In this document: in pieces, positions 3,548 to 55,463 of the stretch | Layout: each line of letters opens with the position of its first letter | How positions within the stretch are numbered: position 1 is the stretch's first letter | Virus record (IMG/VR): IMGVR_UViG_3300046535_001697 | Coordinates: 18,637 to 82,636 of that record | DNA from: a virus | Reading direction: 5' to 3' (one strand) | DNA length: 64,000 nt | Notes under the pieces: generated by a model | Database searches by the model: none | What the model saw: only the letters and a program-made list of their open reading frames with translations | What the model was told of the DNA's origin: nothing | Program-made: the position numbers and the translations under genes

Positions 3548-6500
3548 TCAGCTGACGGTCTCCAGGTGCCGCAGCACGTCGGCGAGTTGCTCCTGCGCGG
3601 ACTGCTTCGCCCCGTGCAGGTGGACGTGCTGGGTGCGGGACTGGTCGTAGGTGGCGCCGGATCCCCCCGCGCCGACGAGCTGCCGGGCGGGGATGAGGTC
3701 CCGCCCCAGCGGGGCGAGCTGCATCCCGAACCGCTCGGCGACTTGGGCGAGGATGCTCATGGAGCGGTCCCGCTTGCCCGGGGCGAGCGGGATGTAGGCC
3801 TCGCCGCCGGTCTCCGGTTCGGCCCACAGTCGCCAGGCGCCCGCAGGGGCGATCTGGGCGACGTGGTGCTCGCCGCCGGAGGCGAAGGAGCGGATGCCGC
3901 CCTGTCCGTAGCGGACGATGCCGCCGTCGGCCTCGGCGAGGCGGGCTTGGCCCTTGCCGCCGACGAAGATGGTCTCGCCGGTGATGGTGACCCGGACGGT
4001 GCGGCCCGTGATCCCGTTGATCATGTGTTGGATCGAGGTGGCCCCGTCGAAGGCGTCGTTCGTCGGCACGGTGACGCGGACCTTGCCGTTCGGCAGGTGG
4101 GTGACGGTGTACCCGATGGCTTCCAGGTCGCCGATGGCCTGCTCGTTGGGGGCCTTGACGTCGATGTGCTTGCCCGGCGGGACGTCCTCGACGGCCTTCT
4201 TGACGGCCTGCAGGTCGGCGATCGTCTTCAGCGCCTCGGGGTCGGTGACCTTGGTGGCCACCGTCTCGGGCACAGAGGCGTAGGCCGCGGTCAGGGAGTC
4301 GATCTGGTCCTTGGTGAAGTGGGCCTGCTGCATCGTCTGCTTGAGCATGTCGATGTCGTGGCCGAGGACGATGTTCGCTTCCTCGGTCGACCCGGTCTGC
4401 TTGGACACCGCCTCGGCGTGCTTCATGGCCGCCTCGGCCGCACTGAGGAAGGCGTCCTTGACGTTGCGGCCCTTCTCGGTGGTGATGTCCAGGCTGGTGC
4501 CGTTCTCCTGCACGGTCTTCTTGAGGTCGGCGAGCGAGGACTGCATGCTGATGGCGGCCTTGGTGGCGTCGATGTTCTTGCCGTTGAGGCCGTCCAGGGC
4601 GTCGGAGAGCTTCTCCGTCTCGGACCGGGTGTCCTTCATGTCGTCGGCCGTGGCGGTGGCCGCGCTTCCCAGCGCCTTCGTGCTGCCAGCCGCGTCCGCG
4701 GAGGCCTCGCCCTCGCGCTGCGCGGCCGCCACGGCACTGTTGACCTGCGGATTGAGGGACTTCAGGGCATCCTCGACCGAGGTGACCGACTTGCCGAGGT
4801 CGTCCTGCCCCGAGTTGGCGTCGCCGGCTGCCTGGGCGTAGTCCAGGGCGGCCTGCTTGGCCGGGCCGAGCTGGGCATTGACCCGCTTGAGGGCGTCCTC
4901 GTTGCCGAGGATCGCCGCAGTCAGGTCGGCGGTGTTGATCCCGAGGTCCTGCGCGGCCTTCAGCGCGCCGCGGGTCTCCAACTCGTGGGCCACCCACGCC
5001 TTCGTGTTGGAGCCGACTGCGGCGCCGTCCGCCTTAACCGCCGCGGTGAGGTCCTCGGTCTGCTTCTTCGCGTCCGAGTTCGCCCCGCCGAAGATGCCCA
5101 GCGCCACTGTGGCCACCGTGAGGGCGATCCCGAGCGGGCCCAGCGCGCGCATCGTGAGTGAGGCCGCGGTGGCCATCCGTGGCATCGTCGTTGCCAGTGT
5201 CGCGAGGGAGGTCTGGAAGGCGGCGATGCGCGGCAGCAGCAGCAGGAAGCCGCCGCCGACCACCGCGAGTGCGCCGCCGAGAAGGAGCAGGCCTGCGGCC
5301 GACGCCTGGGCCCAACCGGGCAGCGCCGCGTAGGCGGTAACGACCGCGTTGACCGTCTGGACCATCTCGCGGAGGATCTTGTTCGCCTCCGTGCCCGACT
5401 GGATCAGGGCCACCTCCAGGCTGCCCTTGAGGTACTGGAGGTCACCGGCGAGATTGTTCATCTGGACACCGGCCATCCTCGCGGCGGCCCCGTTGTCATC
5501 GACCGCCTTGCGGTACTCGGTGATGCCCAGCGAGCCCTGCTCGTACAGGATCGAGGCGGCACGGACCGCGTCCGAGCCGAAAATAATGCCCATGGCGGAG
5601 TTGCGGGCCTCGGGGGTAAGCGTGGCGAAGGAGCGCTGCATGCGGGCGGACAGCTCGGTCAGGCCAACGAAGTTGCCCTGCGCGTCGTACGCACTGAAGT
5701 TGAGCTTGGCCATCATGTTCGCGGCCTCGGTGGACTGCGGGGTCAACCTCTGCAGCATGGTTTTGAGGCTGGTACCGGCGTCAGAGCCGATCAAAGCATG
5801 ATCGGCAAAAGCGGACAGGACAGCGACCGTGTCCTCCAGGGACAGGCCCGTCTGGTGCGCGAGCAGGCCGCCCATGCGCAGGGACTCGCCAAGTCCGTGC
5901 ACGTCGGACGCCGACTTGTTGGCGCCGGCCGCCAGGACATCGGCGATGTGCGTGACGTCCGCGCCCTTCAGCCCAAACGTATTCATGGCCTGCGCCGCAA
6001 TGGTGGCGCTCTCGCCAAGGCTCAGCTGCCCGGCCGCAGCGAGCGAGAGGGCACCGGTGAGCGCACCTCCGACGATGTCCGACACCGAGACACCCGCGCG
6101 CGCAAGCTCACCCTCCGCGTCGGCTGCCTGACTGGCGGTGAATGCCGTGTCACGTCCCGCGGCCAGGGCCGCATCGCGGAGCTGGGCCATCTGCTCGGAC
6201 GTGGCATCGGCGACCGCACCCACGCCCGACATGGCCTTCTCGAAGCGCGCCGCCTCAAACGACGCGGCCGCGAACATGGCGAGCATGGCGAGGCCGGCCG
6301 TGCGGATGCCGGTGAGCGACTTCTCGGCCTGCGTGCCCGCAGCAGCGAGCCGCGTGAACGAGGACGTCTGGGCGGCGGCGCCCGCGGCCAGACCGGTCTG
6401 CTGGGCGATAAGCGCCTGACTGACAGCCAGCCGGTTCGCCAGCGACAGCTGGGTGCCCGCGGCGGCCGCAGCCGTCGCGGCGGTCATCCGCCCATCGGCC

Positions 6501-45062: not shown

Positions 45063-46259
45063 ATGCCCGTGCACCCTGCCGACGACCACATCGGCCGCCA
45101 CATCGCCCAGCAGCGCAAACTCGCAGGCCTCACCCAGACCCAGCTCGCCACCCAGACCGGCTACTCCCTCAGCCTCATCAAACAGGTCGAAACCGGCGCC
45201 AAGCCCGCCACCCCCGCCCTCGTCGCCACGATCGCCCGCGGCCTGCACATCCACCAGGGCCTCCTCACCGGCCAGCCCGACCACACCCTGCTGCGCGCCG
45301 ACGCCCTCGACCGCACCATCTCGGCAATCCGCGACGCCCTCGACCTCTTCGACCTCGGGGCCGACGACACCGTGTCCCGGCCCCGCCCGGCGAACGTCCT
45401 CCACGTCATCGCCGAGGACCAGTGCCGACACGTGCGGGCCGGCCACATCCGGCAGGTCGCCGACATCCTCCCCGCCCTCATCGAGGAAGCCACCGCCGCC
45501 GCCTACCTCGCACCGACCGGCCACACCGCGGAATGGGCGACCCTCGGCTCCGTCTACCGAACCGCGTACGACGTCGCCACGAAGCTCGGCCACCAGGACC
45601 TCGCCGCGATCGCCCTCGACCGCATGGCCTGGGCCGGCGAGAAGGCCTCTGACCCCACCTTGGCCGCCCTTCGCATGTACATGAGGAGCCTCGTCCAGCT
45701 CCGAAGCGGCCGCTACGCCACCGGACAGCGCCTCGTCGACGCCGGCCAGGCCCTCCTCCAGCAGACCGACAACCTGCTCGAGCGCACCGCCCTCACCGGG
45801 CAGCTCCACCTCGGCTCCGCCGTCCTCGCCGCCCGGGCGGGCAACCGCGACGAGGCCCTCGACCACCTCGACCAGGCCGACCGGGCCGCCGCCGTCACCG
45901 GCGAGGTCCCCCGCCTGCGCTGGGTGTCCTTCGGCCCGACCAACGCAGCCGCGCACCGCGTCGCCGCCCTCGCCGAACTCCACGACTACACCGGCGCCGT
46001 CCAGGCCGCCGACGCGCTCGCCGTCCCCGCCGACTGGCCCGCGTCCCGCGCCGCCCGCCACCACGTCGAGGTCGCCAACGCCCGCCTGTGGTCCGGCGAC
46101 AAGGACGGCTCCCTCCGCGACCTGCAGACGGCCCGCCAGCTCGCACCCCAGCAGGTCCGCTACGACGTCACCGTCCGCGAGACCGTGTCCGCCCTCGTCC
46201 GGGCGCAGCGCTCCACCCCCGGCACCCTGCAGCACATGGCGGCCTGGGTCGGCGTCTGA
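45063..46259 (+). CDS. XRE HTH plus TPR-like regulator
   Basis: 'RKLAGLTQTQLA...SLIKQVETG', helical repeats, 'FGPTN', 'APQQVRY'. Confidence 0.88.
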   Translation: MPVHPADDHIGRHIAQQRKLAGLTQTQLATQTGYSLSLIKQVETGAKPATPALVATIARGLHIHQGLLTGQPDHTLLRADALDRTISAIRDALDLFDLGADDTVSRPRPANVLHVIAEDQCRHVRAGHIRQVADILPALIEEATAAAYLAPTGHTAEWATLGSVYRTAYDVATKLGHQDLAAIALDRMAWAGEKASDPTLAALRMYMRSLVQLRSGRYATGQRLVDAGQALLQQTDNLLERTALTGQLHLGSAVLAARAGNRDEALDHLDQADRAAAVTGEVPRLRWVSFGPTNAAAHRVAALAELHDYTGAVQAADALAVPADWPASRAARHHVEVANARLWSGDKDGSLRDLQTARQLAPQQVRYDVTVRETVSALVRAQRSTPGTLQHMAAWVGV

Positions 46260-46390
46260 CGGCCAGCCGAAAGGCCGGCGGCCCGCCGGTCTGTTCAGCC
46301 CCGGGCGCCGCACTTCCCCGAACACGGCGCCCGGCCGCGCAGTCGCGGATATACATCCAGGAGAGCCCGAACGAGGAAGGGGCACCCGCC

Positions 46391-46828
46391 ATGAGCACCA
46401 CCACGCCCGAGCTGGCTGCGATCTGCCAGACCTGCCACAAGCCCATCGCCGCCGGCGAAGGCAGCATCTGGATCAAGAAAACCGACCTGAACGCCACCGA
46501 ACAGGCCGCCAGGGAGTGGGAGGAGCGGCAGGAGGAGCGGACCCGGCAGAACAACGGCATGCCCGTCTACAGTGCCCTCGACCTCTCCGAGTACCCCGAC
46601 GAAGCACACTGGCGGGTCAGCCACCACGCGTGCTCCGACACCAGCACCGCCATGTACTCCTTCGAGGTCCAGCGTTGCAGCACCTGGGCCGAGCTCGTGC
46701 ACTGGACCGCCCACCTCATGGAGAAGGACTGGCTGCGGCACACCGACTGGAGCGACATGCTCCGCGAGACCAGCGACGGCTCCGGCAGCCGCCTGCGCCC
46801 GGCCGTCAAACCGGTCATCCACCCGTAG
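46391..46828 (+). CDS. Hypothetical Zn-binding protein
   Basis: 'CQTCHKPI...HHAC...WTAHLMEKDW'; AAGGGG RBS. Confidence 0.65.
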   Translation: MSTTTPELAAICQTCHKPIAAGEGSIWIKKTDLNATEQAAREWEERQEERTRQNNGMPVYSALDLSEYPDEAHWRVSHHACSDTSTAMYSFEVQRCSTWAELVHWTAHLMEKDWLRHTDWSDMLRETSDGSGSRLRPAVKPVIHP

Positions 46829-46885
46829 CCGGCCCGGCCCGGCCGGCCCCTGTCCACGGGCGCCGGCCGGGCGTAGCGTGCCCGT

Positions 46886-47041
46886 ATGACCGACCCCCAG
46901 CAGCCTGCCCCCGACACCACCGGGTGGGAGATCACCGACAGCGGCTACGGCGGCGACGTCCGACGCATCACCATCCGAGCCGCACCGCCGCGGCCGCGGC
47001 TGCGCCTGGTCCGGCCCGACGACGGGGAGCAGCCCGGGTAG
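46886..47041 (+). CDS. Small ORF (51 aa), possibly leaderless
   Basis: Read by hand: MTDPQQPAPDTTGWEITDSGYGG...RLRLVRP...; TAGCGT shortly upstream of the ATG. Confidence 0.4.
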   Translation: MTDPQQPAPDTTGWEITDSGYGGDVRRITIRAAPPRPRLRLVRPDDGEQPG

Positions 47042-47088
47042 ACGGCCCGGGTGCGGAGCTTCCGGAAACCCGGGGCGCCAACCGGTGC

Positions 47089-48216
47089 TCAGCCGGAGGT
47101 CGGTGCCCCGGCGGCCCGCATCTCCGCCAGCACAGCGTCCAGGGTGTCCAGGCACACCGAGGCGGCCTCCATGCGGGCCTGGTCGTCCTCGTCGTGCACG
47201 GACTTCGACGCGAGGCGCCACCACATGCGGGCGTGCTCCCGTTCCTCCTCGACCTCGGGCAGCGTCATCCCGGCCACCTGCCGGCGGGTGCGCGTGGCGA
47301 GGGCCGCCTTCTCCTGCGGGCTGAGCACGTCGGCGACGTCCTCGGTCTCGTACTCGACCACGTCGGCGCCCGAAGCGGCCCGCCACCGGACGAGTTCCTC
47401 CTCATGGGTGCCGGACGCGGTGGCCTGCGCCACCGTGCGCACTCGGGCCGGGTCCGGTTCCCTGCCGGCCATGAGACCGCCGACGAGGGTCAGTGGCCAC
47501 CTCGGGCCGACCACCCGCGGCAGCCGCGGATTGGAGTCGGTGACGAAGTCGAGTGGCTCGAAGTACTCCCACTCGACGCCGTCCGCGTCGACGACCCTGT
47601 CGCGGCCATCCAGCATCGGGTACGGGCGGCACAGCCGCTCCACAGTCATCGGCGCATCCGCCCAGGGGCGCAGCAGAAATCGGTGGCCGGCGCCGTCACG
47701 CATTGTCTCCCGGGTCTCGCTGACACCGTGTCGGAAGACGCCCACGACGGCGCCGCTGGTGTAGGAGACGTGAACGACGGACGGCGGGATGTCGATGGCG
47801 ACCATGTCGCCTTCCCTCACGTCGCTCGTCAGGCCGGTGATGCGGAACGGCCAGCGCTCCGGGCCTCCGGGCGCGGGGATGTCCACCGCAACCCTGCCTG
47901 GTTCCGTCTCCGGGTCGGTCCACGGCCAGACGAGCACGACCGTATCGCCCGGATCGGTCCCCCACACCTCCGCGACTGTGGCTACTCCAGGCGGGCAGGA
48001 GACCCGCAGCACGTCACCGCGCCGGATCACCTCGTCGGGGACACCGAACCCGTCGTCCGGCAGCCTGTCGCCAGGCGACACCACCACCAGGGCGCCGTCG
48101 GCCCCCGCCCCGGGGGCAGGCTGGTCGCGGACCGCTTCGACGGCCTGTCGGTGAGAACCACCGTCCTCGAGACGCCGGCGGCGGGCATCGTTCTTACGGG
48201 CGTGATTGGCAACCAC
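47089..48216 (-). CDS. Hypothetical protein with Arg-rich N-terminal helix
   Basis: 375 aa; GAGGAG RBS; 'NHARKNDARRRRLEDGGSHRQAVEAV'; two repeated 'RxGDxxxI..PP.V..V' segments. Confidence 0.7.
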   Translation of the reverse strand: MVANHARKNDARRRRLEDGGSHRQAVEAVRDQPAPGAGADGALVVVSPGDRLPDDGFGVPDEVIRRGDVLRVSCPPGVATVAEVWGTDPGDTVVLVWPWTDPETEPGRVAVDIPAPGGPERWPFRITGLTSDVREGDMVAIDIPPSVVHVSYTSGAVVGVFRHGVSETRETMRDGAGHRFLLRPWADAPMTVERLCRPYPMLDGRDRVVDADGVEWEYFEPLDFVTDSNPRLPRVVGPRWPLTLVGGLMAGREPDPARVRTVAQATASGTHEEELVRWRAASGADVVEYETEDVADVLSPQEKAALATRTRRQVAGMTLPEVEEEREHARMWWRLASKSVHDEDDQARMEAASVCLDTLDAVLAEMRAAGAPTSG

Positions 48217-48240
48217 GGCTCAAGCTCCTCAGCGCGTGCA

Positions 48241-48346
48241 CGGCCCGTGATCTGGCACGCCCAGGCCAAGGGCGAGCAACGGAGGTCCTGCTGTCGCGTG
48301 GATGCGGGGCACCTGGGGCCGTCAACGCCTCACCGGTCACGGGCCG
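48241..48346 (-). ncRNA. Putative structured RNA / 5' leader
   Basis: Perfect 10-bp closing helix CGGCCCGTGA/TCACGGGCCG enclosing three short hairpins. Confidence 0.55.
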
Positions 48347-48593
48347 GACAGGACTGGGCCGGGCCGACACGAGCGGCGGCCATCACGCAGGACGATACCG
48401 CGCCCTGCGGACAGGCTGCAGAAAAACGGGCCCGGGACAGGATGCGCCCTGTCCCGGGCCGGCGCCCCCAGGCGGTAATGCGCACACGCTACGCCCCAGG
48501 TCGGGCCGCGTCCACGGTCCGGCCGGAAACGCAGAAAAGGGGCCGGGGCCCGGGCGCCCATGACAGGCTCACCCGGGCCCCGGCCCGTACCGC

Positions 48594-49082
48594 TCATGCT
48601 GCCGCCCGCACCCGATCCAGATGCGGACCACACGACGCCTTCCTCCCCATCGTGTGACACGACTCCCCCGGCGCCGACCCGCACTTCGGGCACGCCACGT
48701 CCAGCGGATCCCGCCGCAGCAGCACCCCGCCGTGACTCACCGCCGCACGGCGCAGCACCTCGATCCCGTCGGTCAGGGCCCGCACCTCCGGCCCGGTCAG
48801 GGCGCGGTCCCGGGTCTTGGCGACCAGGGCGTCCAACTGCGCCGGCGTCGGGCCCTCGGCGACAACGGCGATCCGCATCCGCTGTTTGGCTTCCGGCGCA
48901 CGGCGCGGCGACGCGGGCACCTGCGGGACTTCCCGCTCCACCCGGTCCGGCGCGAGGTGCGGCTCGACGGCGGCGGCCAGCGCATCGATCTGCCGCACGG
49001 TGACCGGCAGGCCGAGCCGGTCCGCGGTATTCATCAGGGCGCGGCGGGCCCGCGAAAAAGTGATCGGGGTGAGAGTGTCCAC
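48594..49082 (-). CDS. Zinc-finger hypothetical protein
   Basis: 'CPKCGSAPGESC...H..R'; AGGAGG RBS. Confidence 0.65.
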   Translation of the reverse strand: MDTLTPITFSRARRALMNTADRLGLPVTVRQIDALAAAVEPHLAPDRVEREVPQVPASPRRAPEAKQRMRIAVVAEGPTPAQLDALVAKTRDRALTGPEVRALTDGIEVLRRAAVSHGGVLLRRDPLDVACPKCGSAPGESCHTMGRKASCGPHLDRVRAAA

Positions 49083-49099
49083 CGTTCCTCCTGTGCTGT

Positions 49100-49303
49100 T
49101 CAGGCTGCGGCCGGGTAGTCGGCAAGGTCTCGGATGACCGTGGCCGTGGGCCGTCCGGCGGGGATGGGTTCGAACTCGGGCTGGCAGTCGCCAAGCTGCG
49201 GGTTGAGCGCGCGCACGGTGCGGGGGTCGGCGCCGGCGGCGATCCGTTCCCACCGGTCGTTCTCGTCCACGGCGTCCGTGCCGGTGGCCGGCCCTGCGGT
49301 CAC
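49100..49303 (-). CDS. Hypothetical protein
   Basis: GTGA overlap with upstream gene. Confidence 0.5.
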   Translation of the reverse strand: MTAGPATGTDAVDENDRWERIAAGADPRTVRALNPQLGDCQPEFEPIPAGRPTATVIRDLADYPAAA

Positions 49304-49662
49304 GGCTCGACCACCTCCACCGGGATCCCCGCGGCCTCGGCGAGCTGCATGCAGCCGCGGGTACCCCTCGACTCGCCGTACGGGAACGCGAGACACAGGT
49401 CAGCGCCGGACTCGACCATCTGCCGGTTGCGGAGCGGCCCGGCAACGCGGCCGTGCAGCGTCCAGTTCGCGACGTACGGGTCCGTCTTGATGCGACGCGC
49501 GTGGGCCCACTTCGCGGCGTGGAGGTCAGCGCCGCTGGGGCAGTTGCCGTGGACGATGGTCAGCGTGTCGGGCTCGTGGCCGGTGGCCGCCCGGTCGAGG
49601 GCGTCCCAGACTGCCTGCTGGTTGGGCCAGTGGCGGCTGCCGGTGACGAGGATGCGGGGCAT
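49300..49662 (-). CDS. SLOG/DUF2493 (YspA-like) protein
   Basis: 'RILVTGSR.W...IVHG.CPSGAD...AGPLRNRQMV...CLAFP...SRGT'. Confidence 0.88.
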   Translation of the reverse strand: MPRILVTGSRHWPNQQAVWDALDRAATGHEPDTLTIVHGNCPSGADLHAAKWAHARRIKTDPYVANWTLHGRVAGPLRNRQMVESGADLCLAFPYGESRGTRGCMQLAEAAGIPVEVVEP

Positions 49663-49914
49663 GGTCAGTCCTTTCGGAGTGCGCGTTCGAGGGCTGCGAT
49701 TTGGTGGCGGTGTGCGCGTCCGGGGCGCTGGTCCGGGTCGGGCCGGCAGGCGGAGCGCTGGACCAGGGCGACGACCGTGGCGGAGATGGCGATCAGGACG
49801 GCGAGGACGATGCCGGTCACGGGTCGCTCCGGTCGCCGCGGCTGCCGCACCTGGCGGCGGCGAGGAACACCAGCAGGGCGAGCACGCCGAGCACGGCGGC
49901 GACGGCAGCCCACA

Positions 49915-50301
49915 TCACGACGCACCGCCCGCGATCCGACGGCTGCGCTTGCCGCTGTACCAGGGCAGCGCCAGCCCGTCGTTCTCCGCCCGGGGCACGA
50001 GGTGCAGGTGGAGGTGGAACACGGACTGCGTCGCTTCCCGGCCACGGCTGGTGATCACGTTCATCGGCCGGTCCGTCCAGCGCATCAGCTCCGCTGCCCG
50101 GCGCATCGTTGCCGCGGACACGTCCGGGTCGGCGGCGAAGTCCTGGACGTGGACCTTGGGCACGATGAGCGTGTGGCCCTCGACGACGGGGTTCAGCGGG
50201 ACGAACGCGACGGCGTCGTCCCATTCGTCGGGGGCGACGACCCACGTGGCGGGCTCCCGCCCGGCGACGATCTCGCAGAAGACGCAGGGGGTGCGGCTCA
50301 C
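49915..50301 (-). CDS. HIT-family hydrolase
   Basis: 'CVFCEIV...GHTLIVPKVH...QSVFHLHLHLVPR'. Confidence 0.92.
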   Translation of the reverse strand: MSRTPCVFCEIVAGREPATWVVAPDEWDDAVAFVPLNPVVEGHTLIVPKVHVQDFAADPDVSAATMRRAAELMRWTDRPMNVITSRGREATQSVFHLHLHLVPRAENDGLALPWYSGKRSRRIAGGAS

Positions 50302-55013: not shown

Positions 55014-55463
55014 TCAGAAGGGCCTGAGGGTGCTGTTCGACAGGACGTACGCGTGGCCGTACTCGGGGTCGAGGCGCGGGCCGGCGGCGCCGTGGTGGAA
55101 CTCGGTGACCGCGCGCTGCAGGTCGCTGGTGGCCTCGAAAAGCTCCAGCGCCTCGTCCTTCAGGTACTTCAGCGCCCAGTCGGGCAGAGAGCCATCGACG
55201 GCGTCGCCGCGGAACTCGCTGTCGAGCGCGTCGAGTGCGTCGCGCCAGGTGGAGAGCATGTCGAGGTGGCTGCGGATGAACTCGTCAGCCGCCGACTCGA
55301 AGGTGACACCTTCTCGGTTGAGGCTCACGGCGTACGCGGCGAGGTCGCGGATGGCCTCGCCGGTCATGAAGGCGAAGCAGTCAGGGATGCCTGCGATGGC
55401 CTCTTCGTAGCGGTTGCACGCGTCGTGCAGGCGCTGCCGGGGCGGGGTCTGGCCGAGGGCCAC
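55014..55463 (-). CDS. Hypothetical helical protein
   Basis: 149 aa, AGGAG RBS, downstream of conserved promoter. Confidence 0.65.
   Translation of the reverse strand: MALGQTPPRQRLHDACNRYEEAIAGIPDCFAFMTGEAIRDLAAYAVSLNREGVTFESAADEFIRSHLDMLSTWRDALDALDSEFRGDAVDGSLPDWALKYLKDEALELFEATSDLQRAVTEFHHGAAGPRLDPEYGHAYVLSNSTLRPF

What the first reader, a model, noticed from the sequence alone, without database searches (positions are those of the whole stretch)
47089..48346. Structured ~105-nt RNA in front of a protein starting with an Arg-rich helix
Seen: a perfect 10-bp closing helix (48241-48250 with 48337-48346) encloses hairpins GGC/GCC, AGCA/TGCT and CGCCC/GGGCG plus unpaired segments GGTGAGGCGTTGA and CCCGCATCCACGCGAC. 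It ends about 9 nt before the RBS of a 375-aa ORF beginning NHARKNDARRRR...SHRQAV, followed by a linker and an unknown duplicated beta domain. Inference: an RNA-protein module in which the N-terminal peptide binds its own leader (autoregulation, RNA antitoxin or RNP defence). From memory it resembles orphan Zeta-pan-type motifs; this is unverified.
Basis: partly seen in the sequence, partly recalled or inferred. Interest (0 to 1): 0.7.

Follow-up and report, generated by a model that had tools for sequence, protein, structure and literature searches.

The report
New leader RNA tied to peptide
The helix belongs to a previously undescribed folded RNA in front of the gene, and in Streptomyces plasmids, phage-plasmids and chromosomes this RNA always comes with the same short basic peptide at the start of otherwise unrelated proteins, which suggests a portable control unit whose working is still untested.

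Summary
The 10-bp helix is at the stated coordinates. Alone it is no better than chance: fold z-score 0.01, and about 20 such helices are expected per window. Comparison makes it real. I collected 22 homologous leaders of about 165 nt from Streptomyces and Kitasatospora plasmids, chromosomes, one metagenome contig and this phage-plasmid. A structure-blind alignment recovers P1, H2 and part of P4. No Rfam family matches.

Conservation starts at a TAnnnT -10 box and ends at about codon 30. All 22 leaders precede a basic N-terminal peptide. That peptide heads 11 sequence clusters of cargo, none with a Pfam or PADLOC match among those scanned. Cargo relatives lacking the peptide lack the leader (33 of 33 loci).

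Peptide-RNA binding is untested. The Zeta-pan resemblance, two of the three inner hairpins and the "duplicated" domain are not supported.

Best guess (about 0.4): the peptide binds its own leader and controls its own expression. This is a new RNA motif class with an unusual protein coupling.

The parts
48419..48460 (-). Intrinsic terminator (14-bp stem, 4-nt loop, T-run) that ends upstream transcription just before the cassette.
   Evidence: 1 terminator-like site found against 0.1 expected. Sequence.
48392..48397 (-). -10 box TATCGT (TAnnnT, preceded by G-n). The predicted transcription start is about 7 nt downstream (about 48385), not mapped.
   Evidence: A single TAnnnT at a fixed offset in 10 of 10 first leaders. 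Within 7-15 nt of the model start in 15 of 22. Sequence upstream of it is at background identity.
48217..48384 (-). Structured 5' leader RNA of about 168 nt: P0 hairpin, then P1 closing a junction that holds H2, a variable stretch and P4, then a tail and the RBS.
   Evidence: Covariance model R1. 22 homologues. 95.0% of cells paired and 19 of 29 pairs with compensatory changes. No Rfam hit.
48362..48381 (-). P0: 5-bp hairpin, GGCCG (48381-48377) with CGGCC (48366-48362), 3 nt from the predicted 5' end.
   Evidence: 4 of 5 pairs have double changes among 22 sequences; 99% paired.
48337..48346 (-). Three further pairs follow (48336-48334 with 48254-48252), one of them a C.A mismatch in this copy.
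   Evidence: GC<->AU in 7 of 22 sequences and UA->CG in 1 at core pairs. Also recovered by structure-blind MAFFT plus RNAalifold.
48241..48250 (-). P1 3' arm (UCACGGGCCG).
   Evidence: As for the 5' arm.
48301..48313 (-). H2 hairpin: GGUGC (48313-48309), loop CCC, GCAUC (48305-48301). It has a conserved G.U pair and a 3-nt loop of variable sequence. It is the most persistent element and is still present in two reduced leaders.
   Evidence: 4 of 5 pairs have double changes; 98.2% paired. H2-like hairpins seen in L095 and L108 (read by eye).
48255..48277 (-). P4 hairpin: GCUCGCC (48277-48271) with GGCGUGC (48261-48255). The loop varies in length.
   Evidence: 6 of 6 pairs have double changes; 89.9% paired.
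48225..48230 (-). Ribosome-binding site GAGGAG, 10 nt after P1 and 8 nt before the GTG start.
   Evidence: Not consistently sequestered: mean unpaired probability 0.27-0.44, against 0.33-0.40 for the whole RNA, in 10 leaders.
48127..48216 (-). Coding sequence of the conserved basic N-terminal peptide (residues 1-30; consensus M-V-x-N-H-A-R-K-N-x-A-R ... T-G-E-x-H/Y-R/Q-Q-A-V-x-A-V-R).
   Evidence: 27 cluster representatives in 1.84 billion proteins: 26 begin at residue 1-4 and one at residue 31, probably a miscalled start. Synonymous codon variation shows selection on the peptide, not on RNA.
47089..48126 (-). Cargo: linker, an unknown domain of about 235 aa (residues about 58-292), and an acidic helical tail. 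Function unknown.
   Evidence: No Pfam, NCBIfam, PHROG or PADLOC hit. 13 full-length relatives. The central domain alone matches at 33 further places in 401 Streptomyces genomes. Its nearest Atlas models are actinobacterial hypothetical proteins of about 240 aa.

Best explanation
Shown by comparison. The helix is stem P1 of a previously undescribed structured RNA of about 165 nt (P0 hairpin, then P1 enclosing hairpins H2 and P4). It is read on the gene's strand, begins just after its own TAnnnT -10 box and ends at the ribosome-binding site. This leader and the first 30 or so codons, which encode a basic two-helix-like peptide, form one conserved block. That block sits in front of 11 sequence clusters of cargo on Streptomyces and Kitasatospora plasmids, chromosomes and this phage-plasmid.

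Inferred mechanism. The peptide is always at the very N-terminus, so it leaves the ribosome first. I propose that it binds the leader of its own mRNA, with the invariant junction nucleotides and H2 as candidate contacts, and so limits further translation or changes mRNA stability. That would make an autogenous control cassette able to keep any attached cargo at a set, low level. In this window the cassette is a separate transcription unit. It follows a terminator at the end of a block of methyltransferase genes and converges on an XRE-TPR regulator gene.
For: RNA is real. 22 homologues, 95.0% of pair cells canonical, 19 of 29 pairs with changes on both sides, 43 such cells, 0 of 500 shuffles as high. 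Slid controls give 24-49% paired. The result grew with sampling: 6 pairs at 10 sequences, 17 at 20. Structure-blind MAFFT plus RNAalifold recovers the P1 core (GC<->AU in 7 sequences, UA->CG in 1), H2 and part of P4.

Strand. G.U cells 38 against A.C cells 13; with two special pairs excluded, 19 against 7.

Unit boundaries. Pairwise identity is 0.62 upstream, which equals the shuffled baseline of 0.61. It is 0.73-0.75 in the leader, 0.76-0.77 in codons 1-30 and 0.63-0.66 beyond, whether or not the cargo is the same.

The peptide is selected as a peptide: synonymous codons vary.

Coupling. Peptide-first searches: 10 of 10 early loci and 10 new loci from a peptide HMM all carry the leader directly upstream. 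RNA-first search: 5 of 5 true pattern hits are followed by the peptide, 2 of them new. Cargo relatives without the peptide have no leader: 30 loci and 3 loci.

Position. The peptide starts at residue 1-4 in 26 of 27 representatives, and at residue 31 in one, probably a miscalled start.

General precedent. Structured 5' UTRs upstream of genes for nucleic-acid-binding proteins commonly serve autoregulation (passage seen in PMC11109978).
Against: No binding, transcript or reporter data exist. No RNA-seq run holds this DNA, and the transcription start is predicted only.

The leader and peptide are about 25 nt apart, so linkage alone could explain their co-occurrence.

The RBS is not consistently sequestered in predicted folds, and no attenuator-type terminator is seen, so the output step is unknown.

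The peptide matches no known RNA-binding family, and the Atlas gave nothing for it.

Thermodynamic stability is unremarkable.

The pair counts come from alignments fitted to the model, which lean towards the structure. Related sequences inflate cell counts, and the 22 sequences form a few clades.

Two loci with peptide-like N-termini (L095, L108) have only a reduced leader that the model does not detect.
Confidence: 0.4

Rival explanations
1. The leader is a cis-regulatory RNA that answers to something else, such as a host or element protein, a small molecule, an sRNA, temperature or an RNase. For example, P0 at the 5' end could act as a stabiliser. The peptide would then be an independent functional head, such as a nucleic-acid anchor, a localisation tag or a degradation tag. 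The two travel together only because they are adjacent and both useful.
For: The same covariation evidence applies. Highly conserved unpaired junction nucleotides resemble ligand-binding or protein-binding cores. P0 lies 3 nt from the predicted 5' end. A possible alternative helix between the 3' arm of P4 and the tail (GCGCGCC) is 89% paired, with UG, UA and CG types at one pair, which hints at a conformational switch.
Against: The cargoes share no pathway, which argues against a metabolite riboswitch. The alternative helix is weak: it is a low-complexity GC repeat, and the -2 slide still gives 75% paired. This reading does not explain why the peptide is never found without at least a reduced leader among the loci that could be examined.
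Confidence: 0.28
2. DNA-level autoregulation. The peptide is a small DNA-binding head, and the conserved blocks, including the two arms of 'P1', are operator sites in the transcribed region that co-evolve with it.
For: A conserved N-terminal nucleic-acid-binding head joined to variable C-terminal domains is the usual layout of repressors and antitoxins (general knowledge). CGGCCCG occurs twice directly and once inverted in the leader. Half-sites for one protein would also change together.
Against: Four separate helices covary, including short hairpins whose loops vary in sequence and length. G.U exceeds A.C by 38 to 13, which is not expected for double-stranded palindromes. The spacing between the direct repeats varies from 17 to 21 nt (my count on the alignment). 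The upstream direct-repeat copy does not follow the P1 changes in L077 and L079. Nothing upstream of the -10 box is conserved. No HTH or RHH family is detected in the peptide.
Confidence: 0.1
3. The RNA works in trans or as a partner of the finished protein, as an RNP, an RNA antitoxin or a guide. This would be the first reader's defence or toxin-antitoxin reading, or the peptide would aim diverse effector domains at the same RNA carried by rival elements.
For: The setting is mobile: a phage-plasmid, linear and circular plasmids, one copy beside a Shedu gene, and variable cargo behind a constant head.
Against: The leader has no tandem RNA repeats. My reading of the sequence and the terminator scan show no terminator between RNA and ORF. 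No PADLOC hit for 10 cargo proteins. There is only one copy of the RNA in the window. There is no conserved partner gene.
Confidence: 0.1
4. There is no function. The conserved block is a recently spread recombination stub, or the helices are chance in GC-rich DNA.
For: The single-sequence fold is at chance level.
Against: Leader identities average 0.73-0.75 with many compensatory changes, and the peptide shows purifying selection with synonymous change. The block is found across two genera and in 15 of 401 sampled Streptomyces genomes.
Confidence: 0.03

Closest known systems
Phage lambda N protein with its nutL leader, and HK022 Nun (recalled, not read here)
   Same: A short arginine-rich peptide at the very N-terminus. 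A long leader of its own mRNA carries the RNA it recognises. In lambda the complex also represses N translation. N and Nun show that one RNA-binding head can carry different effector parts.
   Different: No boxA/boxB-type site: H2 has a 3-nt loop of variable sequence, and the motif is a four-helix RNA. There are 11 sequence clusters of cargo rather than one antiterminator. No sequence relation was found. Binding is untested.
Autogenous leaders of ribosomal-protein and other nucleic-acid-binding protein genes, and the 'protein-binding candidate' RNA motifs of comparative surveys (PMC11109978, passages read; PMC3616713, abstract only)
   Same: A covarying structured 5' UTR directly upstream of the gene whose product is thought to bind it.
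   Different: Here the presumed binder is only a detachable head of about 30 residues, shared by unrelated proteins on mobile elements. None of the Streptomyces motifs named in the passages I read from that paper (dauA, livJ, pntA, asfR) has this gene association.
Internal-protein loci of T4-type phages: a constant N-terminal targeting peptide in front of variable cargo (recalled, not read here)
   Same: A constant promoter, start region and N-terminal peptide in front of highly variable cargo on a mobile element.
   Different: No capsid-targeting role is indicated. Many copies lie on large plasmids or chromosomes. The T4 loci have no structured RNA, as far as I recall.
Type III toxin-antitoxin systems (ToxIN type)
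   Same: An RNA element immediately upstream of a protein gene on phages and plasmids.
   Different: No tandem repeats. My reading of the sequence and the terminator scan show no terminator between RNA and gene. No PADLOC match. The cargo is not one endoribonuclease family.
ANTAR-target RNAs of actinobacteria (bioRxiv 10.1101/660928, abstract only)
   Same: Structured RNAs near start sites in high-GC actinobacteria, used for translational control by a protein.
   Different: Those are recognised by a separate ANTAR protein. From memory they are paired hexaloop hairpins. Here the architecture is different, and the coupling is to the peptide encoded in cis.

Membership tests
Any Rfam 15 family (including the recalled Zeta-pan motif) | A covariance-model match at or near the family's gathering score. 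| tested here: not met
   cmscan at E <= 10 over 46000-50000 gave 3 chance hits (E 1.2-4.7), all on the terminator hairpins at 48406-48601 and none on 48214-48384. Ten other leader loci at E <= 1 gave no hit at the leader.
Structured cis-acting leader RNA (generic) | A conserved secondary structure supported by compensatory changes. | tested here: met
   19 of 29 pairs with double changes, 95.0% paired, 0 of 500 shuffles as high. Structure-blind recovery of P1, H2 and part of P4.
Structured cis-acting leader RNA (generic) | Transcribed as part of the mRNA, on the gene's strand. | tested here: inconclusive
   A conserved TAnnnT within 7-15 nt of the model start in 15 of 22. A terminator lies just upstream. 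G.U exceeds A.C. There are no transcript data.
Lambda N / nut antitermination | A boxB-type hairpin with a conserved loop, plus boxA. | tested here: not met
   The H2 loop is 3 nt and varies in sequence. No such element is seen in the alignment. The definition of the feature is recalled.
Lambda N / nut antitermination | The N-terminal arginine-rich peptide binds the RNA. | not testable with these tools
   The peptide is basic and N-terminal. Binding needs an experiment.
Riboswitch | Association with genes of one metabolic or transport theme, plus an expression platform. | tested here: not met
   11 sequence clusters of cargo; none of the cargo proteins scanned has a family match. No terminator follows P1 and there is no consistent RBS sequestration.
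Type III toxin-antitoxin | Tandem RNA repeats, then a terminator, then an endoribonuclease toxin. | tested here: not met
   No tandem repeat in the leader. No PADLOC hit.
RHH / HTH DNA-binding domains (for the peptide) | A profile match to a known DNA-binding family. | tested here: not met
   Pfam at E <= 5 on residues 1-50 gave 0 families. NCBIfam gave none. The Atlas feature scores of 0.79 or less are at chance level.
DUF402 (lead from an automatic Atlas cluster name, for the cargo) | A Pfam PF04167 match. | tested here: not met
   Pfam at E <= 10 on P0001, three full-length relatives and three stand-alone relatives gave no DUF402 hit. The Atlas row itself lists no common Pfam family.

The most novel reading that the evidence does not exclude
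A detachable RNA-peptide pair would be a general-purpose, self-contained expression governor of mobile elements. The first 30 residues of the nascent protein would grip the leader of the very mRNA being translated (control in cis). Any cargo recombined behind the cassette would then inherit the same tight, copy-number-independent dosing. Alternatively, the same head would aim diverse effector domains at the matching leader RNA of rival elements, as an RNA-addressed exclusion system.
Probability: 0.25. Interest if true: 0.85.

Novelty: new variant of a known kind. Interest (0 to 1): 0.7.

Why it matters
The finding adds a covariation-supported RNA class that is absent from Rfam. It was found here only in Streptomyces and Kitasatospora.

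It also shows an association I did not find described in three full-text searches. The structured leader is inherited together with a 30-residue N-terminal peptide and independently of the rest of the protein. If the two interact, this would be a compact and portable autoregulatory part. It could be useful for Streptomyces engineering, and it offers a handle on a dozen families of 'dark' plasmid and phage proteins.

The hypothesis is directly testable with a peptide, an in-vitro RNA and reporter fusions.

Tried and rejected
Thermodynamics. Single-sequence folds are not unusual, and 10-bp inverted repeats are common here. I rejected them as evidence.

Upstream ORF in the leader. The ATG at the leader start is not conserved (L002 has GAC) and the stops differ. 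Rejected.

RNA structure extending into codons 1-30. Synonymous sites vary. Rejected.

Duplicated domain. hhalign probability 0.1%. Rejected on sequence; no structure was available.

Cargo function. Pfam, NCBIfam, PHROGs, PADLOC and PDB sequence searches gave nothing. Neighbours of four stand-alone homologues of the central domain share no theme. The Atlas gave only hypothetical actinobacterial models of about 240 aa.

RBS sequestration. None consistent.

Alternative helix between the P4 3' arm and the tail. Weak; kept only as an idea.

Integron attC-like site. No arrays and no consistent integrase nearby. Not pursued.

Collections that gave no relatives. Viral contigs by protein and by pattern. 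Phage records by DNA and by peptide. Metagenome contigs by protein. DNA BLAST of the leader in 401 family genomes found only the centre genome; the other 33 genomes gave pieces of 23-71 nt at E 4e-6 to 1e-3.

Pattern scan of metagenomes. 6 stretches, of which 1 is true and 5 are unrelated.

RNA evidence. No RNA holder was listed for this stretch.

Literature. Three full-text searches and passages of one paper showed no description of this motif or peptide. Supplementary motif lists could not be seen and may bear on the novelty claim.

Earlier notes of this scan. No look-alike stretch was found.

Chance-level model hits I set aside. Window 5468-5594 (15.9 bits) and 55307-55398 (14.9 bits), L001 4489-4629, L038 and L019. 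L099 at 22.8 bits, on the strand opposite to its peptide match, plus L102, L107, L091 (second hit) and L112.

Peptide HMM matches without a model hit. Of the 27 peptide-HMM loci searched with the model, 17 had no convincing leader. I translated 7 of them. Five look like chance matches in Arg/Ala-rich frames. L095 and L108 look real but have reduced leaders. The other 10 I did not translate.

L078 (weak hit, 19.1 bits) was left out of all pair counts.
Full report
WHAT IS IN THE WINDOW. The window is 72% G+C. It is part of an 82.6-kb IMG/VR virus record rated 87% complete. Earlier notes of this scan describe that record as a phage-plasmid with virion, par and conjugation genes; I did not re-check this. 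On the minus strand an ORF of 375 codons runs 48216-47089. It starts with GTG, has GAGGAG 8 nt upstream, and has codon-position GC of 0.77/0.53/0.87. The perfect 10-bp helix 48346-48337 / 48250-48241 is there. Upstream lie two DNA methyltransferase genes, a gene ending in a phage zinc-finger domain, and a strong intrinsic terminator at 48460-48419. Downstream a plus-strand frame and an XRE-TPR regulator gene converge on the ORF. The gene is therefore its own transcription unit at the end of an accessory block.

IS THE HELIX MORE THAN CHANCE? Not by itself. The 131-nt fold has z = 0.01, and 98 of 200 shuffles fold at least as well. The window holds 27 perfect inverted repeats of 10 bp or more with 20-120-nt loops, against 19.8 +/- 4.0 in simulated sequence. 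Rfam gives nothing on the element. The case rests on comparison.

RELATIVES. The protein has only 13 full-length relatives among 5.8 billion proteins. Those that carry a source name are Streptomyces hypothetical proteins. In their alignment the first 30 or so residues are nearly invariant, while the body is 40-53% identical. A scan of species-representative genomes returned one full-length relative and two loci that match only residues 1-34 and 1-48. Reading those loci showed that the DNA upstream of the start codon is also conserved, although the proteins differ after residue 30 or so. Further copies came from several sources:
- a metagenome pattern scan, where 1 of 6 stretches was true;
- PLSDB plasmids: NEAU-S7GS2 45.8-kb linear, S. 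jietaisiensis 36-kb circular with a terminase, S. canus 388-kb, Kitasatospora 214-kb, and ITFR-21 53-kb beside a Shedu gene;
- one more genome.

THE RNA. I built covariance model R1 from them. It found the 10 training sequences, a weak hit upstream of the most diverged peptide (L078) and nothing else convincing. In particular it found no second copy in the window.

With 10 sequences only 6 pairs showed double changes, so I looked for more distant members. A 40-position HMM of the peptide was searched in 401 Streptomyces genomes. R1 then found a leader directly upstream of 10 new, diverged peptides at 31-66 bits. A DNA pattern made only from RNA features (junction, H2 and the 3' arm of P1), run on the same 401 genomes, hit 9 genomes. 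Three were known. Four were one ABC-ATPase coding stretch. Two were new leaders (56 and 61 bits), and both are followed by the peptide, which the HMM had missed.

On the 22-sequence model alignment 95.0% of cells are canonical pairs, 19 of 29 pairs have changes on both sides (43 cells), and 0 of 500 shuffles reach any of these values. Sliding the partners gives 24-49% paired. Every helix covaries:
- P0: 4 of 5 pairs;
- P1: 5 of 13 pairs, including GC<->AU in 7 sequences;
- H2: 4 of 5 pairs;
- P4: 6 of 6 pairs.

These alignments are fitted to the model and so lean towards it. As a check, a structure-blind MAFFT plus RNAalifold run on 20 sequences independently predicted the P1 core, H2 and part of P4, with 6 covarying pairs. 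G.U cells outnumber A.C cells 38 to 13; with two special pairs excluded the count is 19 to 7. This favours an RNA read on the gene's strand. Rfam has no match at the leader in 10 further loci.

THE UNIT. A TAnnnT box preceded by G-n sits at a fixed offset in the first 10 leaders and within 7-15 nt of the model start in 15 of 22. It is absent or displaced in 7. Pairwise identity is at background upstream of the box: 0.62, against 0.61 for shuffled sequence. It is 0.73-0.75 in the leader and 0.76-0.77 in codons 1-30. Beyond that it returns to 0.63-0.66, whether or not the cargo is the same. Codons 1-30 vary at synonymous sites, so it is the peptide that is selected.

In 1.84 billion cluster representatives the peptide HMM finds 27 proteins of 61-524 residues. 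The match begins at residue 1-4 in 26 of them and at residue 31 in one, probably a miscalled start. Those with names are Streptomyces hypothetical proteins. Among the 22 loci the regions after residue 38 fall into 11 BLAST clusters. The commonest cargo is a Cys-rich CxxCxGxG-type protein. None of the cargo proteins scanned has a Pfam or PADLOC match.

The converse also holds. Relatives of the window's central domain that lack the peptide (30 loci) have no leader. The same is true of three plasmid relatives of another cargo. Two loci with peptide-like N-termini (L095, L108) escape the model but still show an H2-like hairpin, one of them with a compensated pair (read by eye).

HOW IT MAY WORK. 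Shown: a covarying RNA, its coupling to the peptide, and the boundaries of the unit. Inferred: transcription from the TAnnnT box, and everything about function.

The strict N-terminal position, the basic composition, the invariant unpaired junction nucleotides and the invariant G.U in H2 fit a peptide that binds its own leader as it leaves the ribosome. That would be autogenous control comparable to lambda N with nutL or to ribosomal-protein leaders. I put this at about 0.4.

Three points speak against it. Adjacency alone could explain the coupling. The RBS is not sequestered in predicted folds. No binding family is detectable in the peptide.

The rivals are as follows:
- A leader that senses another factor, with the peptide as an independent head (0.28). 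A weak alternative helix would fit a switch.
- A DNA operator array for a DNA-binding head (0.1). This is disfavoured by hairpin-scale covariation, the G.U excess, variable repeat spacing and the unconserved region upstream of the -10 box.
- A trans-acting RNA, antitoxin or RNP (0.1). There are no repeats, no terminator and no PADLOC hit.
- No function (0.03).

Right: the helix, the P4 hairpin, the ORF and its N-terminus, and the idea of an RNA-peptide module. Wrong or unsupported: the AGCA/TGCT and GGC/GCC hairpins, the missed H2 and P0, the 'duplicated' domain and the Zeta-pan resemblance.

The DNA of most database proteins and any fold of the cargo were therefore out of reach. No RNA-seq run holds this DNA. 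The 22 sequences fall into a few clades, so cell counts overstate the number of independent events. Prevalence in the sample is 15 of 401 Streptomyces genomes. This is a lower bound for that sample only.

Noticed in passing
window 48530-48601 and 48419-48490, minus strand: Two strong hairpins in tandem lie after the upstream gene that ends at 48594. Only the second passed the terminator scan. A stretch of about 60 nt lies between them.
   Followed up: partly
window 46088-47041, plus strand: A frame with high third-position GC runs from about 46300 to 47041, convergent with the ORF. It has an in-frame stop at 46826-46828. It is either two small genes or a broken gene. No Pfam or PHROG hit.
   Followed up: partly
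L103:1296-1488 and L103:2555-2912: This leader carries a tandem duplication of about 45 nt covering the P1 5' arm and the junction. Two tRNA genes lie about 1 kb downstream, as at the edge of an island.
   Followed up: no
L098:1495-1590; L076:3001-3555; proteins P0016 and P0025: Several cassettes have decayed cargo. One ORF stops right after the peptide (31 aa), and others have truncated or frameshifted bodies, while leader and peptide stay intact.
   Followed up: partly
L078:184-3213: The most diverged cassette (69-aa product, weak model hit) lies head to head with a hypothetical gene and a Shedu (SduA) defence gene on a 53-kb linear plasmid.
   Followed up: no
plasmid hits H7-H21; L082:1-2055: The cargo type of P0036 is widespread on actinomycete plasmids without the peptide: 61 PLSDB records, covering Streptomyces, Kitasatospora, Rhodococcus, Nocardia and Kutzneria. 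In one case it lies directly after a ParB gene.
   Followed up: partly
L113, L117, L118, L121: The RNA-derived DNA pattern also matches one conserved coding stretch of an ABC-type ATPase (Walker A region) in four genomes. This is a chance look-alike to keep in mind for pattern searches.
   Followed up: yes
L108 (G363:C392): A peptide-like N-terminus heads a protein with a P-loop-like GxxGxGR stretch. Its leader is reduced, with an H2-like hairpin in which one pair is swapped.
   Followed up: partly
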